This document shows, piece after piece, positions 1,121 through 64,000 of a stretch of 64,000 nt of DNA. Position numbers and translations under genes: made by a program. Under the pieces are notes generated by a model. The model was not told where the DNA came from. It saw only the letters and a list, made by a program, of their open reading frames with translations, and made no database searches. Every line of letters starts with the position of its first letter. Within the stretch, counting starts at the first letter, position 1. Location of the stretch: positions 110,238,001-110,302,000 of the forward strand of contig NW_024704742.1 of NCBI RefSeq assembly GCF_018977255.1, read 5' to 3'. This DNA is from Callorhinchus milii (taxonomy: Eukaryota).

Positions 1121-1920
1121 GAGTCCTGTAGCTCAGTGGTTAGAGCACTTCCCTTATAAGGGAAAGACCTGGGTTCAATTCCCAGCAGGGCGAAATATTG
1201 GGCAAGTTAGGAACATAGGAACCTAGGAACAGGAGTAGGCTATTCAGCCCTTCAAGCCTGTTCCATCATTTAATTAGATCATGGCTGATCTGTACCTCAA
1301 CTAATCCTTTCAATTCCAATTTCCCACTTTCTCCCCATATCCCTTAATACCCTGACCTACCAAAAATCTATCAACCTCACTCTTGAAGGTGTGGATGGAT
1401 CCAGCATCCACAGCTTTTTGGGGGAGAGAATTCCAGATTTCTACCACCCTTTGAGTGAAAAAAATGCTTCCTGGTTTCATTCTTAAATGGCCTGGTTCTA
1501 ATTTTAAGATCCCCTTGTTTTGGATTCCCCCACTAGAGGAAATAGCTTCTCTGCAATTACCCTATTGAATCCCTTTATCATCTTAAATACTTCAACCAAT
1601 TCACCCCTCAACCTCCTAAACTTAAGGGAACATGCCTCTGTTTACCTTAACAGTAAGTAGGAACCCGGTTGTTAATCGATTGGTAGATCACTTTTCCTGG
1701 GTAATAATTGCTTAAAAAAAATTGGTCACTCAATCCCCGACTGTTTGTGGGACACTGTGTGTGCAATTGGCTGCCACGTTTCACCCACAAAATATATAGT
1801 CAATTCACTTTACATGATATTCTGTGAAGCGCTTTGAGATGTCTCAAACACATGATAAGGCGCAAATAATAATAATAATCAAATAATCAAATGCAAGGAT
1901 TATTATTATTATTATTATTA
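1121..1920 (+). mobile_element. tRNA-derived SINE (long variant) interrupted by a CR1 fragment
   Basis: Head gagtcctgtagctcagtggttagagcac...gggttcaattccc with A/B boxes. The body resumes at about 1631 (catgcctctgtttacc...), followed by the Deu-like tgtttgtgggacactg...aattggctgcc, an L2-like tail and (TTA)n. Confidence 0.85.
1209..1630 (-). mobile_element. CR1 LINE 3' fragment inserted in a SINE
   Basis: Begins with the reverse-complemented CR1 tail repeats (aggaacataggaacctaggaac) and aggagtaggctattcagccc, then a decayed end of ORF2 (gaattccagatttctaccaccctttgagtgaaaaaa). Confidence 0.8.
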
Positions 1921-3620: not shown

Positions 3621-4658
3621 TTGAAAGTGTTAATTAACACATCAAAATTTATTAAGAAACATCACATTTGCACCTTATTGCTTTCTTTGAAATCTAATGC
3701 TGCTAATGAGCAAAATTGTGAGCAGCTAGTACTGTAAGTTTGGTGCCCATGAATGTATTCTGCATATAATAAGATATTAACATCAGTGTGGAAGCCAAAT
3801 GTAAAACGACTTTATTTGGCAAAGACCAGAGAATATAATTGGACACGACAGGAGTATTGGTATTGCACACATTTGTCTTCTCTAATTCGAGTTTAAAGTG
3901 TTGGAAACTTAAAAAAGTGATATCTGCAGTTGTTATCAGTAATAAAGAAAAAGGTCTCTGGGCTTGAAATTCTGTCAGTCGTATCATAACCGGATATAGG
4001 ACAGTGGTCCTTACATTATTTTATGGGTCAATGTAACGCATGTAAATTACATTATTTAAGTGTTTGTCTCTGACAGGCTTAAAACCTGATGCTGGACTGG
4101 TTTGGGCATCTGTTTCAAATATTCTCACGTAGTGCATGTGTTCTTATTAATAGGGACCAGCATAATGGTGAAATTAATGGCTGTGCATGCTTTCTTGTCA
4201 TAGGAAGATCTGGCACAACAAGAGCCAATGCAGGATTGGAGGTGGAGAGCTTCCAACAATTTAGGAGCTGGCAGGAGTGCAATAGGTAATAGCTCCCTTA
4301 TTTGCCCTCAGGGGCCACCACAATTACGGTTTACCTAGGAGCTATGGTTGACAAGGTAATGGCAATACAATTATCATTTGGATGGTAATGCTCCAATTTT
4401 GTATTGTTGGTAAAATTACCTTCAGTAGTCTACATGTTGATTATTAATGAAACTTGCCCTTGTGCTTCTGGTTTCTATCTTTCAGCCTCGCTTCTGTTGG
4501 CTGTTACAATGAGTTTGCTATCTGGGCTTAAGTATCAACAATAGAGTTTCTGACATCTTCAAGGAGAATGTTAGCATCCTAGTCCCCAAACAGACGAAAA
4601 TGCTTACCCGGATGCCTCCAACAATGAGAAGTGGGGATATGAGTATCAAACACAAGAT

Positions 4659-4813
4659 CAGAGTTCTTCGTCATTGAGTTCTGACGAAGGTCGTGGACCC
4701 GAGACGTTGACTCACTTTCCTTTCTCCATAGATGCTGCCTGACCTTCTGAGTGTTCCCAGCGACTTCTGTTTTTGTTTTCAGATTTCCCGCATCTGCAGT
4801 ACTTTGCGTTTTG
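4659..4813 (+). mobile_element. Penelope-like element terminal fragment with hammerhead motif
   Basis: 14-bp TSD atcaaacacaagat (4645-4658) / atcaaacccaagat (4814-4827). The body ctgacgaaggtcgtggacccgagacgttgactc...agatgctgcctgacc...catctgcagta is homologous to 21091-21186 and to the recalled shark Penelope terminus. Confidence 0.75.
4675..4714 (+). ncRNA. Minimal type I hammerhead ribozyme fold (core mutated GAAA to GAGA)
   Basis: Stem I tgagtt/gactca, core CTGACGA, stem II ggtc-gtg-gacc, GAGAC, then a GTT triplet. Confidence 0.6.
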
Positions 4814-5609
4814 ATCAAACCCAAGATAACTTTATAATCGGTAGTTTTAAAAGATTGAAAGCTGTTCTCAGAAAGTACTATGGAAAACCGAAAAATATTT
4901 GTTTTTTGAAACTAGGTCTTTAATATTGCTAAGACCTAGACTATTTGTGCAACATAACCAGCTTGGCTCTGTTTAAAATTCTTCAACATCAGTCCTCCAG
5001 CTGGGTGCGAGTTAGAGAGTTACAGTTGTCACTGCAGTCTTTTTACTACATCATTGGGACAAATCAAGTACTGGGGAATTTATTGATACAGCCTCAGATC
5101 AAAAGAGATTTTAGTGCTAATGGAGTGCTATAGTTACAATTAAAGTGCTTGATGCTGGAAGATTAGTGACTATTTTGGGACGGCAAAGGATTGGATTAGA
5201 TTTAGGCACAGGACCTGGTGTACTACATCTGAAATGAAACATTATAGGATTGATCCACTGGTGTGGGAAGTTACTCAGATTAAACAATATTATATATCAG
5301 CTCTGGTCAACTTCAGTTAGTTCACATAGGACCACATAATGTTATCGATAAAAATCAAATTTTTAAGCTCAGTGTCAGGTGTAAATTGTTTCCTTTCCCC
5401 CAGCTATTCAATTTTCTCCAACCAATCGTCCCATCATTTGTGCTTTCATGGGCGTCTGCAACTCTTTGGTACTTCATTCAAACCACATTATTCATGTGTG
5501 TGCCTAGAGATTGGGACTAAAAAAGTGCTTCTCTTGGAATTAGAATTCATCTCGTCAATAGAAAAAGCTCCCCGTGCATCTAAATTGTTTTCAATCGCAG
5601 TAAGTGCAA

Positions 5610-10197: not shown

Positions 10198-10516
10198 ATA
10201 ATAATAATAATAATAATCCTTGCATTTGATATAGCGCTTTTCACGTCGGGAGGACGTCCCAAAGCGCTTCACAGAACACACTGTAAAGTGAATTGACTGT
10301 ATATTTGTGGGCGAACGCGGCAGCCAATTGCGCACAGCAATGTCCCACAAACAGTCGTGGATTGAAAATGACCAATTTATTATTGTTTTGGGTTTTGGAG
10401 GGATTATTATTAGGCATGTGGAGTAAGAAAACTTGCCCAAGGTTTCGCCCTGCCTGGAATTGAACTCAGGTCTCTAGCTTGCAAAGCGAGTGCTCAACCA
10501 CTGAGCTACAGGACTC
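10198..10516 (-). mobile_element. Young tRNA-Ala-like SINE (short variant)
   Basis: Complete head (anticodon arm ctcgc-tttgcaa-gctag), Deu-like body, tail ...gtgaaaagcgctatatcaaatgcaagga(tta)n and probable TSD tccatt. Highly similar to 59568-59871. Confidence 0.9.
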
Positions 10517-13515: not shown

Positions 13516-13745
13516 TTCACAGAGTCTATAGTGTGATATTCACAGGGTCCATAGTTCAATGTTCACAGGGTCTAAAGTGCAATGTTCACAGGGTCTTTAG
13601 TGTTGTGATCACAGCATCTATAGTGCAGTGTTTATGTGGTCTATCATGCTCTAATCACAGGTCTATCATACAAAGTTCAAGTGTCTATAGAACAGTGTTC
13701 ACAGAATCTATAATGTAATGTTCGCAGAATCTATAAGGTACAGTT
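13516..13745. repeat. Minisatellite, about 10 degenerate copies of a 23-bp unit
   Basis: Consensus ttcacagggtctatagtgcaatg repeated in tandem. Confidence 0.85.
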
Positions 13746-20815: not shown

Positions 20816-21090
20816 TAGTCCACTTATGCTATAGTCAGGGTGCCTTATAACTTGGCCAACCTGTAACTGTTTATGATAAGACCATTCAGCTATTAAAACA
20901 GAATTGAATACCTATTTGAAGCAAAATAAAAGGTTATGTGTTGTGAATAGGGAATTGAGATGGCAATGGAGGAGTGAGCATCAGTATAGATTCTATAGAC
21001 TGAGTCACCTTTTTCTGTCCAATGGGAGAACAAGCCATCATATTCTCTGTTATGTATTATATGTGTGAAAACCAACACTTATTAACATAT

Positions 21091-21186
21091 AAAAACAGAG
21101 AGAGCTGGGAAACCTCAGCAGGTCAGGCAGCATCTATGGAGAAAGGAAGGTGAGTCGACGTTTTGGGTCCACGACCCTTCGTCAGA
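21091..21186 (-). mobile_element. Penelope-like element terminal fragment with hammerhead motif
   Basis: Perfect 14-bp TSD acttattaacatat (21077-21090 / 21187-21200). Homologous to 4680-4775. Confidence 0.8.
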
Positions 21187-21189
21187 ACT
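21151..21189 (-). ncRNA. Minimal type I hammerhead ribozyme fold (core mutated GAAA to AAAA)
   Basis: Minus strand reads (a)gtt CTGACGA a gggtc-gtg-gaccc AAAAC GTC gactca. Confidence 0.6.
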
Positions 21190-21691
21190 TATTAACATAT
21201 TGTATGTGTAAGGCATATGGTATATGAACAAATAACCATTGAGGGTCAAAAGCTCAGTTCTAGCTCATGTTGGCAAACTACACCTGAGTTAAGAATCTAT
21301 GAATAGTCCATCACTGCAGTTTTTTCACGATAAAAATTATATAGTTTCATCTTTCTCTTTTTAATTGCAGATGAACTACACAGGAAGAGATAATAAGGAG
21401 GGGGAGGCAATGCTGAGTCTTCAAAGAATATATTATAAAGGTGCTTAATAGTGCTTTGGATGTCATATATTCTGTATTTTAATGAGAATTTGTGCACTGT
21501 TATCTTATGATTTACAACCTATAGCTTTAAGGGATTAAGCTAATTTGCATACTTTTGCATTTTGGATCCAGTGTAAAAATATTAGCTAAATCGCTTGTTG
21601 TAGCATAAATTATGACACTTTTTTTGAATAGTTTTTGGCATCTTACCATTATGTAAATAGTTATGTTTTAATGCTGAATTTTGAGCAGTTA

Positions 21692-57378: not shown

Positions 57379-57522
57379 GGGGGGAAATGGTCAGGGTGAG
57401 GGGAGGGAAGGGAGGGAGAGAGGAGGGGGGAAATGGTCAGGGTGAGGGGAAGGGAAGGGAGGGAGAGAGGAGGGGGGAAATGGTCAGGGTGAGGGGAGGG
57501 AAGGGAGGGAGCGAGGAGGAGG
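57379..57522. repeat. G-rich tandem repeat (3 units of about 46-49 bp) in the L2 3' region
   Basis: gggggaaatggtcagggtgagggga(g)ggaagggagggagagagga x3. Confidence 0.9.
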
Positions 57523-59349
57523 AAGAGAGTCGAGAGGGGAGCTGAAGGCACGGTCAAAGAGAAAGGTTTTGAGACCGGCCTTGAAGGAGGAAAGGGAGGA
57601 AGCAAGGCGAAGGCACTGGGGGATGGAGTTCCAGAGCCTCGGGGCTGAGAGGCTGAAGGCCCGACCACCGATAGTAGGGCGGTTGGGGCGGGGGACGTGG
57701 AGCAGACCGGAGCCAGAGGAACGGAGGGTACGGGCAGGTAGGTAGGGGGATAGTAGGTTGGAGAGGTAGGAGGGAGCAAGGCCGTGAATGGCCTTGTAGG
57801 TGAGGATGAGGATCTTGAAATCAATCCTCTGGGGGATGGGGAGCCAGTGGAGGCGAGCGAGGGTAGGAGTGATGTGGTCCCGAAGCCTGGTGCGGGACAG
57901 TACACGAGCTGCAGAGTTCTGAATGACCTGCAGCTTGTGGAGGGAGGTGCCGGGAAGGCCGGCGAGGAGAGAGTTCCCATAGTCCAGCCTTGAGGTGACA
58001 AAGGCGTGAACCAGGGTTTCAGCAGCGTGAGGGGTGAGGTAATGCCGTAGTCTGGCGATATTCCGGAGGTGATGGAAGGCGGTGCCAGTTGTGGTGCGGA
58101 TGTGAGGGAGAAAGGACAGCTCAGGGTCGAACAAAACGCCGAGGTTCCTGACTGGCTTTGAGAGGTGGAGAGTGCAGCCTTGGATGCTGATGGTGTCAGC
58201 GCCTGAGGTGCGGAGGCGCTGACGTGAGCCAATCAGGAGGGCCTCGGTTTTTCGCACGTTGAGCTGAAGAAAGTTGTCTCTCGTCCAGGACTCGATGTCG
58301 GACAGGCAGGCTGTCAGGACATCGGTGGTCGTGGAGTTGAGAGTAGAGGAGGAAAGGTAGAGTTGGGTGTCATCCGCATACATGTGGAAGTTAACCCCAT
58401 GTTTGCGGATGATGTCACCGAGGGGGAGCATATAGAGGGTGAAGAGGAGGGGACCGAGGACAGAGCCCTGAGGGACACCACATGAGACAGTACGGGGGGT
58501 GGAGGAGAAGCCATTCGTTGAGACGAAGTGAAGACGGTGGGAAAGGTAAGAGCTAAACCATTCAAGGACAGTGCCTTGAAGGTTGAGGTGGGAGGACAAG
58601 CGGTGGAGTAGGATAGCGTGGTCGACCGTATCGAATGCTGCCGATAGGTCGAGGAGGACGAGGAGACAGAGGGAGCCCTGGTCACAGATAGTCAGGATAT
58701 CATTGGTGACCTTGACCAGGGCAGTTTCTGTGCTATGAGCAGCACGGAAACCTGACTGAAGGGGTTCAAAAAGAGAATGGGTGGAGAGGAAAGAGCGCAG
58801 TTGGGAGGCGACAACTCTTTCCAAGACCTTGGAGAGAAAGGGGAGGTTGGAGATGGGCCGGTAGCTTGATAGCTGCGACGCATCAAGGGAGGGTTTTTTC
58901 AGGGTGGGCGTGATGATGGCAGTTTTTAATGGAATGGGGACAGAGCCAGAGGAGAGGGACAGGTTTATGATGTCAGTGATGTGTGGGGCAAGAAAATGGA
59001 GCTGGGAGATAAGGAGTGGAGTGGGGATGGGGTCAAGGGAGCAGGTGGTTGGTTTTAGGGATAGGATGAGTTCAGTGACAGAGGGTGGGGAAACGGGTAC
59101 GAAGGTGTGTAGGGGAGGATGGGTAGGAGTCGGAGTGTGGGAGGGAAGGGGTGGGTGGTGGGTGGAAGTTGGAGGGGAAGTGACCGCGGAGCGGATTCCC
59201 TTGATCTTGGATTCAAGGAAATCCAGCATCTCCTCGCAGTGAAGGTTGGAGGAGATGACCTGCGCGGGGTGGCGGGGGGGACGGAGGAGTCGGGATGTGG
59301 TGGAAAACAGTAGCCTGGGGTTGTTCTTCGCCTCCAGGATTATCCTGGA
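57484..59349 (-). CDS. L2 ORF2 reverse transcriptase (partial; endonuclease domain lost by truncation)
   Basis: 581-aa ORF with [39 protein letters not shown] and YADD. The frame stays open upstream of the Met ([15 protein letters not shown]...) to the truncation point. Confidence 0.93.
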
Positions 59350-59364
59350 GCACCTGCACCATCT

Positions 59365-60642
59365 AGCACCTGCACCATCTTGTGCAGTGTTCCTCAGGGT
59401 TCTGTCCTTGGTCCCCTTCTCTTCAATATCTATATGCTCCTTCTTGGTGACATGGTGACATCCGCAGATATGGAGTCAACTTCCATGTGTATGCGGATGA
59501 CACCCAACTCTACCTCTCTGCCACCACCCTCGACTCCAGCACTACTGCTGACAGCATCACCATCCATAATAATAATCCTTGCATTTGATATAGCGCTTTT
59601 CACGTCGGGAGGATGTCCCAAAGAGCTTCACAGAACACACTGTAAAGTGAATTGACTATATTTGTGGGTGAACGCGGCAGCCAATTGCGCACAGCAATGT
59701 CCCACAAACAGTCGTAGATTGAAAATGACCAATTTATTATTGTTTTTGGTTTTGGAGGGATTATTATTAGGCGTGTGGTTTAAGAAAACTTGCCCAAGGT
59801 TTTGCCCTCCCTGGAATCGAACTCAGGTCTCTCACTTGCAAAGCGAGTGTTCTAACCACTGAGCTACAGGACATCCATGGTTGCACACTCCACCTTACTA
59901 AGCCAGTCTGGAACCTTGGGATCTTGTTTGACCATCAACTATCCTTTCTACCCCATATCTGCACCATGACCCGCTCTGCTTTCCCCCACCTTCACAACGT
60001 CGCCCGGCTCCGCCACTGTCTCGCACCACAGGTCGCCGAAACCCTCATACACGCCTTCATTACATCGAGACTCAACTATGCAAACTCATTGCTTGTTGGC
60101 CTCCCCAACTCCACCATCTACGGGCTGCAGATCATCCAGAACTCTGCAGCCCGTCTCCTCTCCCGCACTAGACTCCGCAACCCTATTACCCCCATCCTTG
60201 CCCAACTCCACTGGCTTCCCATCACACAGAGGATACAGTTCAAGATCCTGGTCCTCACCTTCAAAACCCTCCACAGTCTTGCTTCCCCCTACTTCTCTGA
60301 CCTCCTAACCGCCTACCACCCTATTTGCTCCCTTGGCTTAGCATCCCCCGCCTTGTTCTCCCCACTATCGGTGGGCGGGCCTTCCACCACTCTACACTCA
60401 CCCTCTGGAACACCATCCTGCAGTCCCACCATCTCACCCCCTCACTCGCCACCTTCAAGACCCACCTCAAGACCCTCCTCTTCTACCGTGCTTTTGATCT
60501 CCCTGCTTTCCACCCTGCCCTCCACCCTCCCCAACCCCGACCCTCAGCTCGGGTCCGTAACTTTGACTGTCCAGCGCCTTGGGATGTCTTCCCGATGTGA
60601 AAGGCGCTATACAAATGTAATTTTGTTGTTATTGTTGTTGAT
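59365..60642 (+). mobile_element. Older L2 3' part (frameshifted), target of two later insertions
   Basis: [24 protein letters not shown] and FITSRLNYANSLLVGLP...HWLPITQRIQFK motifs, an internal deletion and a (TTG)n tail. Confidence 0.92.
59568..59871 (-). mobile_element. tRNA-Ala-like SINE (short variant) inserted in L2
   Basis: TSD catccat (59561-59567 / 59872-59878). Highly similar to 10198-10516. Confidence 0.92.
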
Positions 60643-60719
60643 CTAGAACAAGCCACTTTACGTTACAATATCAGAACACGTGAATAAGACTATATCCTGC
60701 TGAATGTTACACAACAAGG

Positions 60720-62745: not shown

Positions 62746-64000
62746 CAACAACAACAACTTACATATATATAGTGTGCTTCATGCAGAGAGTGTCTCGGAT
62801 ACTGAACAATGGTACAGTCTGATGCAGAGCCAGGCAGAAAGAGGAAATGACTGGGTCAAAGAGGAAAGACTATCTGCTATTTACTCTTAAAGTGAAGAAT
62901 CAGGTTGGTTTATGGACTCCATACAATACTCATGTCCAACAGATTAAGTTAGTTGTGAGATAAAAGTTGACACAATCCTCATGCAGTTTATCCTGAGCTA
63001 CTTGTCAAGTTTAGATTGTTACCTGAACTATGTGCTCATTTGACAGACATTATTAATACAATACAATATTACATATGCATAGCACCCTTCATGTCGGGAG
63101 GACATGAAGCCTACAATAGAAGTCTTAAATACTTGTCCATATATTTTACAGAATGAAAATTCATAAAAATTCTTTGACTTCCAGGACTAAACTCGTACTT
63201 TCTATTTAAATGGCTGCATTCAAAGTCTTTACTGTAATTATTTAGAAACTATACTTAATGTTTAACTGAACTGGGAGNTTTTTCCTTTTTAATCTTGCCA
63301 CTCTATGTCAAGCACATTTTTGTATTTGCCAGTGTTTTCATGGAAACGTTTCAAGAAACACTAATAGACGATAACATATTTTGTCGGAGAACACTTTAGA
63401 GCTTAACTCAGTGGTAATTTCTACTTAGTGCTAGAGCTCCGTAATGATTTTCAGGATTTAGTAAAAGCCCATTTTGAATCTGTAGTGCGGTTTAATACTC
63501 CTTCTGTGACATACCTTACTGCCAAATGTACTAACTACTTACCTGGCATCACAATTTAACATGGACAGTAAATGTTTCCATCTGGCCTGCCTATTTTATA
63601 CACATTTATTTGTTGAACACCGCTTGGATGTTTGGAAAGGTTTTTGTGCAAGTGTCCCGAGGGTAATCAAATTAATATAATACCATTCAAAAATGAGCCT
63701 CTAACTCTTCAGAGTACTTATAGTGATTTATGTGAGATCTGTAAATTGTAGAAGGAACAATATATATATTGCCTTAGAAAAACATTTTGTGACGTGGTTT
63801 TTACTATGTTCTTTCAACCATATGATGGCTATCAAAATCCTCCCGGTACAGAGTTGTATGTTTTGGTTGAGAGCTTAAAGTCTGGTTAATGTTTCATGAC
63901 ACCTGGTATCATAGATTGCCTACTTCCTGTGAACCAAGCAGCTTTGTCACGTTCAGCAAAATCAGGTAAACATGCCAGAAGTGTAAAGAATAATAATAAT

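What the first reader, a model, noticed from the sequence alone, without database searches (positions are those of the whole stretch)
4645..4827. Mini Penelope-like insertion carrying a minimal hammerhead ribozyme (copy 1)
Seen: a 155-bp insert between 14-bp direct repeats (1 mismatch). Its 5' part folds as stem I (tgagtt/gactca), CTGACGA, stem II (ggtc/gacc), GAGAC, GTT. Known: Penelope-like elements carry minimal type I hammerheads with a tiny palindromic stem III in their pseudo-LTRs, and these are thought to cleave as dimers. Inference: this is a non-coding, ribozyme-bearing retroelement terminus (retrozyme-like or an extremely truncated Penelope). This copy is probably inactive because of the GAAA to GAGA change.
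Basis: partly seen in the sequence, partly recalled or inferred. Interest (0 to 1): 0.7.

Follow-up and report, generated by a model that had tools for sequence, protein, structure and literature searches.

The report
Dead Penelope tail with broken hammerhead
This 155-base insert is one worn copy of a very abundant repeat that carries a minimal hammerhead ribozyme motif; it is likely the cut-off end of a Penelope-like jumping gene and is predicted not to cut RNA, so it is a correct catch of an already described kind of element.

Summary
In detail: 155 nt between 14-nt direct repeats (13/14), with the stated hammerhead layout. A second copy lies at 21091-21189 (-) with a perfect 14-nt duplication. 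Contigs from two runs of the same organism show a huge family (9,919 and 3,268 contigs laid). Its core reads GAAA (99.6% and 97.4% of depth at 4703), so this copy's GAGA is a copy-level mutation. The copy also lost a stem II G, and its 5' junction is predicted to misfold it. The family shows Penelope insertion marks: an optional 39-nt 3' tail, 5' inversions and rare head-to-tail joints. The only metagenome match to its core + stem II pattern lies 160 nt behind the stop of a Penelope-type GIY-YIG ORF. No parent ORF of this family was reached. Verdict: likely a dead, 5'-truncated Penelope-like end, a known kind (PMC4209133). This scan noted such inserts at 8 other places in this genome. Open point: many copies seem to start at the ribozyme's 5' edge. 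Interest 0.2.

The parts
4645..4658 (+). Left target-site duplication (14 nt, AT-rich)
   Evidence: 13/14 identical to 4814-4827
4659..4676 (+). 18-nt 5' junction sequence, not family-wide; holds an 8-nt inverted copy (4666-4673) of the core at 4682-4689, likely a template-switch or tiny inverted-partner scar
   Evidence: 44 of 20,000 random 18-mers give such a match; summed depth 31.5 in bin 4653-4675 against 50,990 in the next bin
4677..4712 (+). Minimal type I hammerhead motif: 4-bp family stem I (4677-4680/4709-4712, extended to 6 bp here by 4675-4676/4713-4714), CUGACGA, extra A, stem II, palindromic ACGU with no loop 3; scissile site would be 4708/4709
   Evidence: layout as in PMC4209133
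4703..4703 (+). A14-to-G core change of this copy; family has A
   Evidence: A in 99.6% (X1) and 97.4% (X5) of summed depth; copy 2 has A
4688..4700 (+). Stem II, shortened from 5 to 4 bp by loss of one G behind 4688, which leaves C4700 unpaired
   Evidence: table 4 (extra G in 46% and 40% of depth aligned through) and table 7 (245 contigs in X1 clipped at 4689 carry the extra G in their consensus); copy 2
4713..4774 (+). Body of the terminal repeat downstream of the ribozyme; ends in a T run where copy 2 and many family copies end
   Evidence: loose ends at 4773, 4774 and 4779 with low agreement (0.39-0.41)
4775..4813 (+). Optional 39-nt 3' extension, matching the 30-40 nt Penelope 'tail'
   Evidence: absent from copy 2; 318 contigs in X1 continue into it; tail described in PMC11167929 and PMC8557442
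4814..4827 (+). Right target-site duplication
21091..21189 (-). Copy 2 of the family, tail-less; 87 of 99 aligned letters match copy 1; G12-to-A core change, 5-bp stem II, GUC triplet; its first 3 letters overlap the duplication
21187..21200 (-). Copy 2, 5' target-site duplication (14 nt)
   Evidence: perfect match to 21077-21090
21077..21090 (-). Copy 2, 3' target-site duplication (14 nt)

Best explanation
The insert is one of very many dispersed copies of a short repeat with a minimal hammerhead motif, likely the 5'-truncated 3' end (pseudo-LTR plus tail) of an endonuclease-bearing Penelope-like retrotransposon, and this copy is predicted to be catalytically dead. Inferred mechanism: the element's GIY-YIG endonuclease made a staggered cut 14 nt apart in AT-rich DNA; its reverse transcriptase started on uncleaved element RNA at the outer of two start sites (hence the 39-nt tail; copy 2 used the inner site), copied through the whole ribozyme and stopped about 137 nt in; joining left an 18-nt scar with a short inversion, and repair made the duplication. 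In the parent element the ribozyme would cut weakly and only as a dimer through the ACGU palindrome or with protein help; the monomer is predicted to trap its core by pairing GACG with CGU(U/C). After insertion the copy decayed neutrally (A14G, loss of a stem II G, other changes). Shown: duplication, motif, family majority letters, two 3' end classes, inversions. Inferred: parent element, enzymes, order of steps, inactivity.
For: Family size: 9,919 (X1) and 3,268 (X5) contigs lie on the insert, with summed depth about 1.1 million against 5-11 in most flank bins (not a true copy number); 2 copies in 64 kb. Intact family core and palindrome. Copy 1 is 39 nt longer than copy 2, and loose ends pile at 4773-4779 or run into the tail, as for the optional tail that marks two RT start sites in the anole element (PMC11167929). 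14 of 15 listed joints are opposite-strand joints starting at 4678-4716, as in inverted 5'-truncated partners (PMC8557442). Both copies span the scissile site, as expected if unprocessed RNA is the template. The single match among 241 million metagenome records to the core + stem II pattern (L001) lies 160 nt after the stop of a same-strand ORF with a GIY-YIG domain (E 4.9e-5, above cut-off); of its 31 homologs 19 carry PF00078 and 26 a Cys linker before the YIG motif. The palindrome CpG decays like a CpG outside the motif: 14.0% at 4706 against 13.0% and 10.7% at 4761 and 4762 in X1. In the whole insert, stem I and II pairs have probability 0.00. Any core change was grounds for rejection in PMC3088659. 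Copy 2 is on the opposite strand, 16 kb away, so no same-sense partner was found in the window.
Against: No Penelope ORF of this family was reached: none in the window (31 relatives by tblastn and profile; 27 ORFs by Pfam), and no genome is held. L001 is from another source, its stem I is poor, its ORF is frameshifted, and its likeness to the family beyond the pattern is weak (16-nt gapped match; 137 and 11 of 5000 shuffles reach it). Upstream of the ribozyme the loose ends agree little (0.47-0.55 over 30 letters), which random truncation does not predict and a discrete short element does. The duplications (14 nt) are longer than the 8-10 nt in the rotifer passages read.
Confidence: 0.72

Rival explanations
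1. The family is a discrete non-autonomous element of about 100 or 137 nt (ribozyme plus RT-start region), amplified from its own master copies by Penelope proteins in trans: a SINE-like or retrozyme-monomer mini-Penelope.
For: Both window copies begin at the first base of stem I. Loose ends at 4687 and 4689 (83 and 245 contigs in X1) share about 14 letters and little further upstream. Seven contigs in X1 show head-to-tail joints (tables 5 and 5c). Pseudo-LTR-derived retrozymes with many monomers are reported in vertebrates (10.64898/2026.07.22.740005).
Against: Two loose-end consensuses share about 10 more upstream letters (X1 4689, X5 4694), so some copies continue. Counting contigs favours unique junctions over collapsed shared sequence. 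No promoter or tRNA head is in the insert. Tandem joints are 7 of 9,919 contigs. The same preprint says most PLE insertions are 5'-truncated single terminal repeats.
Confidence: 0.18
2. A solo pseudo-LTR left by recombination between the two direct pseudo-LTRs of a once longer insertion, with the original duplication kept.
For: It would keep the duplication and remove the ORF; solo pLTRs are reported in a rotifer (PMC3846280).
Against: Several solo pLTRs there lacked duplications. It needs tens of thousands of long precursors and does not explain the short inversion at the junction.
Confidence: 0.05
3. The repeat is the end of another retroelement class (LINE or SINE) and the hammerhead likeness is incidental.
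For: 14-nt duplications and T-rich ends also fit LINE-type insertion (general knowledge); the window is rich in LINE pieces and tRNA-headed repeats; Rfam gives no hit.
Against: The descriptor is met by chance 0.013 times per 64 kb; the family majority has the full core; the pattern's only outside match sits behind a Penelope-type ORF; the insert matches only copy 2 in the window.
Confidence: 0.03
4. This copy is kept for a host function, such as cutting or folding a host transcript.
For: The 5' junction is present in individuals of two studies, and no empty-site joint was seen in 2 of 2 runs that cover the site.
Against: Core change, shortened stem II and predicted misfolding; presence in two individuals fits an old neutral insertion.
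Confidence: 0.02

Closest known systems
Minimal hammerheads (min-HHR) of metazoan Penelope-like elements (Cervera and De la Pena 2014, PMC4209133; parts 1-2 of 4 read)
   Same: Type I, no loop 3, palindromic 15.2-16.2, one extra base between 9 and 10.1, G10.1-C11.1, short helix I; mostly dispersed single motifs 'probably related to truncated PLEs', thousands per genome in fish, coelacanth and frog.
   Different: Helix II is 5 bp with a 3-nt loop (7-8 bp in the schistosome families described); the majority triplet is GUU; cartilaginous fish are not named in the parts read; figures and supplements not seen.
Poseidon element PAc of the green anole (Frangieh et al. 2024, PMC11167929; parts 1-2 of 4 read)
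   Same: Hammerhead in the pseudo-LTR; two RT start sites downstream give an optional tail; AT-rich targets; uncleaved RNA is the template.
   Different: There the ORF starts inside the ribozyme and RT starts in an AC-rich stem-loop 111-118 nt into the ORF; here no start codon lies at stem II, the two ends are U-rich and lie about 66 and 105 nt past the scissile site, and nothing was tested biochemically.
Neptune/Nematis-type EN+ PLEs with a Cys linker before GIY-YIG (Craig et al. 2021, PMC8557442; passages read)
   Same: 5' truncation, inverted 5' partners, 30-40 nt tail; the L001 ORF behind the matching motif has the Cys linker.
   Different: The clade of this family's own parent is untested; no ORF was reached.
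Non-LTR retrozymes (PMC7229834, passages; bioRxiv 10.64898/2026.07.22.740005, parts 1-3 of 5)
   Same: Short, non-coding, type I hammerhead, likely PLE-derived, duplications longer than 4 nt, monomers occur.
   Different: Defined by tandem units, in PMC7229834 of 150-450 bp with canonical type I ribozymes and circular RNAs; this locus is a single 137-nt unit with a min-HHR, and tandem joints are rare in the family.

Membership tests
min-HHR motif (family level) | Core C3 U4 G5 A6 N7 G8 A9 and G12 A13 A14 A15.1 U16.1 H17 | tested here: met
   A majority at 4703, no other core row at 10% (depth is low at 4681-4688, where the loose-end consensus supplies the letters); core list from PMC3088659
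min-HHR motif (this copy) | Intact core and stems next to it | tested here: not met
   A14G and unpaired C4700; two defects
min-HHR motif | Palindromic 15.2-16.2, extra base between 9 and 10.1, G10.1-C11.1 | tested here: met
   ACGU at 4704-4707, A4688, 5-bp stem II in family and copy 2
min-HHR motif | Compensatory changes in the stems | tested here: inconclusive
   one contig table 5c has A-U in place of G-C at the base of stem II; no alignment of many copies was available
min-HHR motif | Weak self-cleavage as a dimer or with protein | not testable with these tools
   folding only
EN+ Penelope-like element | Parent ORF with telomerase-like RT and GIY-YIG endonuclease linked to this terminal repeat | tested here: inconclusive
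   none in window; no genome held; indirect link through L001
EN+ Penelope-like element | Optional 30-40 nt tail at the 3' end | tested here: met
   39 nt, present in copy 1, absent in copy 2; two end classes
EN+ Penelope-like element | 5' truncation with inverted partners and partial tandems | tested here: met
   14 opposite-strand joints listed, 7 head-to-tail contigs in X1; 8-nt inversion here
EN+ Penelope-like element | Short duplication of an AT-rich target | tested here: met
   14 nt in 2 of 2 copies; empty site not seen
EN+ Penelope-like element | Pseudo-LTR plus tail encodes the first codons of the ORF | tested here: inconclusive
   the frame from ATG 4732 is open to the end of the insert, but a search for longer proteins gave 1 candidate and no hit (weak test)
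Non-LTR retrozyme | Tandem array of two or more ribozyme-bearing units at the locus | tested here: not met
   single unit
Non-LTR retrozyme | Expression as linear and circular monomer RNA | not testable with these tools
   only contigs were available

The most novel reading that the evidence does not exclude
The family is a discrete 100/137-nt Penelope-mobilised mini-element at up to about 10^5 copies whose 5' end is set by the hammerhead itself: reverse transcription, or the master RNA, ends at the first base of stem I. The ribozyme fold, not its cleavage, would then define the insertion boundary, and thousands of junctions would map where a Penelope RT starts and stops in vivo.
Probability: 0.18. 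Interest if true: 0.5.

Novelty: new member of a known kind. Interest (0 to 1): 0.2.

Why it matters
The single copy matters little: it is a decayed insertion of a described kind. The family is a useful resource. Its many junctions can test in vivo the two-start-site model and the uncleaved-template model from the anole element, and the apparent pile-up of 5' ends at the ribozyme's edge could bear on the open question of what Penelope hammerheads do. No paper on this family turned up in four searches, but repeat libraries such as Repbase or Dfam could not be checked and may list it.

Tried and rejected
Rfam: no hammerhead family hit at gathering level over 64 kb or at E<=10 over 4400-5100. No whole genome is held. 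A downstream 25-letter pattern gave 0 matches in viral and metagenome contigs; the core + stem II pattern gave 0 in viral and prokaryote genome contigs. The L001 protein found no relative in viral contigs (6 pattern matches, none confirmed). No RNA holder listed; X5 is only guessed to be RNA and covers the flanks evenly. Organisms B and C (X8, X9): 0 contigs laid, which the tool says can be false, and the organisms are unknown. Search with the peptide from ATG 4732: no hit. A tblastn hit at 63920-63997 (E 0.74) is not a GIY-YIG remnant on inspection. The one tblastn hit of the 31 relatives (P0003, 58744-59124) falls in the window's LINE ORF, and the profile did not support it. The 110-aa minus-strand ORF over the insert has no Pfam match. 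The shared 16-nt stretch between L001 and the family is too weak to count as homology. Lunse et al. on dimer cleavage is not held; only its citation was seen. Look-ups of earlier findings by sequence and nearby gave nothing. A host gene around the insert was not sought beyond 27 of 31 ORFs of 110 aa or more.

Full report
1. Observation. The sequence is as described. A 14-nt direct repeat (4645-4658, 4814-4827; 13 of 14 identical) encloses 155 nt. Such a pair turned up in 10 of 3000 random windows of like geometry. The motif runs: stem I 5' strand 4675-4680, CUGACGA 4681-4687, unpaired A 4688, stem II 4689-4692/4696-4699, unpaired C 4700, GAGA 4701-4704, palindrome ACGU 4704-4707, U17 4708, stem I 3' strand 4709-4714. 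BLAST and nhmmer find one other copy in the window, at 21091-21189 on the minus strand, 87 of 99 letters alike, inside a perfect 14-nt duplication. A min-HHR descriptor finds only these two places in 64 kb, with two defects and one; Markov sequence gives 0.013 per 64 kb at that tolerance. Rfam reports no hammerhead.

2. The family. No assembly is held, so I laid public contigs on 4400-5080 at 80% likeness (4 runs: X1 and X5 of the window's organism, two studies; X8 and X9 of two other organisms, nothing laid). 9,919 contigs of X1 and 3,268 of X5 were laid, nearly all of the depth on the insert. Summed depth peaks at 1,075,486 against 5-11 in most flank bins. The tool warns that this is no copy number; with 2 copies per 64 kb, an order of 10^4-10^5 is my estimate. 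At 4703 the family reads A (217,135 of 217,905 in X1; 58,749 of 60,306 in X5), so the core is GAAA and this copy's G is its own change. The family has an extra G behind 4688, giving a 5-bp stem II as in copy 2. No row is listed for 4708, so the majority triplet is GUU. This copy also differs from the majority at 4746 and 4789 (98% and 99% in X1). The CpG in the palindrome has decayed in 14.0% of depth, CpGs outside the motif in 13.0% and 10.7% (X1), so dispersed copies show no sign of protecting it. Covariation evidence is one contig with A-U for G-C at the base of stem II. The 5' junction is present in both individuals and no empty-site joint was seen; contigs show presence, not absence.

3. 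Marks of Penelope-type insertion. Copy 1 is 39 nt longer at its 3' end than copy 2, and loose ends either scatter at 4773-4779 or run on into that extension. This matches the optional 30-40 nt tail (PMC8557442, passages), which in the anole element lies between two RT start sites (PMC11167929, parts 1-2 of 4). Of 15 joints listed, 14 are opposite-strand joints from 4678-4716, and 7 contigs in X1 join head to tail. The 18 nt at 4659-4676 hold an 8-nt inverted copy of the core (44 of 20,000 by chance). Both targets are AT-rich. Both copies span the scissile site, in line with the report that uncleaved RNA is the template. Duplications of 8-10 nt are described for rotifer elements (PMC3846280, passages); here they are 14 nt.

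4. Link to an ORF. The window holds no Penelope ORF: Pfam on 27 of the 31 ORFs of 110 aa or more gave RT only in two ORFs far from the insert, and 31 Penelope-type proteins gave no remnant by tblastn or profile. A pattern of the family's core and stem II had 1 match in the metagenome collection (L001) and none in viral or prokaryote contigs. That match lies 160 nt after the stop of a same-strand ORF with a GIY-YIG domain (E 4.9e-5) and a Cys linker. All 31 homologs carry PF26215, 19 carry PF00078, and 26 have the Cys linker. So this ribozyme design sits at the 3' end of a Penelope-type element elsewhere. Against over-reading: L001 is another source, is frameshifted, has a poor stem I, and shares little else (137 and 11 of 5000 shuffles reach the downstream score). 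The parent of this family remains unseen.

5. How it likely works. An element protein nicks AT-rich DNA, primes on uncleaved element RNA at one of two sites downstream of the ribozyme, copies through the ribozyme and stops early; repair leaves the duplication (inferred from sections 3-4). For the ribozyme, the isolated 40-mers of both copies fold best by pairing core GACG with CGU(U/C) (-10.3 and -11.5 kcal/mol against -7.7 and -7.3 for the open-core fold), so monomers are predicted to be off. Min-HHRs were inactive as monomers and weak as dimers (PMC4209133, parts 1-2 of 4), and the anole ribozyme cut only with protein. Copy 1 adds A14G, a shortened stem II and, in the whole insert, stem probabilities of 0.00; core changes were grounds for rejection in PMC3088659 (passages). 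Its only relative in the window is on the other strand. It is predicted to be dead.

6. Rivals. The serious one is a discrete non-autonomous mini-element. Both copies start at stem I, and loose ends agree little upstream of it (0.47-0.55 over 30 letters). But two consensuses share about 10 more letters, and contig counts favour unique junctions, so the test is inconclusive (0.18). The locus fails the tandem criterion for a retrozyme (PMC7229834, passages; bioRxiv 10.64898/2026.07.22.740005, parts 1-3 of 5; supplements not seen, and they may list this organism's families). Solo pseudo-LTR by recombination (0.05), another element class (0.03) and host function (0.02) have little support.

7. Novelty. 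The kind is described: thousands of dispersed min-HHRs per genome, probably from truncated PLEs. Searches showed no paper on this family; repeat libraries could not be checked. PMC6765202 and PMC6155905 were read as passages only; Lunse et al. only as a citation. Earlier notes of this scan describe similar inserts at 8 other places in this genome with the same reading, and one names the host as elephant shark; these are unchecked and not counted as support. My own data say only vertebrate-like DNA with LINE pieces and tRNA-headed repeats; a cartilaginous fish was my guess from recall. Verdict: new member of a known kind, interest 0.2.

Noticed in passing
window 57484-59475 (-): A 663-aa open frame with an RT domain (PF00078, E 1.1e-36), which looks like a well-preserved L2/CR1-type LINE ORF2 piece (clade label recalled); inverted partner pieces lie at 59771-60646.
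   Followed up: partly
window 1122-1193 (+), 10445-10515 (-), 23707-23778 (+), 59802-59873 (-): Four tRNA-like heads of one SINE family, with shared downstream body and A/T-rich tail; 10300-10495 and 59657-59852 are 94% identical.
   Followed up: no
window 4765-4782 (+): The tail begins with a pyrimidine run followed by CAG, resembling a 3' splice acceptor; the family's loose-end consensus also has a C-rich run and CAG at the 5' edge of stem I, where the Drosophila virilis Penelope intron ends.
   Followed up: no
tables 5 and 5c (other loci of the family): Seven contigs in X1 join the 3' part of one unit back to the ribozyme of the next; these natural head-to-tail dimers are the candidates for active cleavage.
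   Followed up: no
L001 118-1298 (-): A metagenome contig holds the 3' half of a frameshifted Penelope-type ORF with Cys linker and GIY-YIG, then the same ribozyme core and stem II; it shares a 16-nt gapped stretch downstream with this family that could be a conserved signal.
   Followed up: partly
window 13516-13743: A degenerate 23-nt tandem repeat of at least 7 units.
   Followed up: no
window 4732-4812 (+) and 4579-4911 (-): A 27-codon frame from an ATG runs to the end of the insert, and a 110-aa stop-free frame crosses it on the other strand; neither found support.
   Followed up: yes
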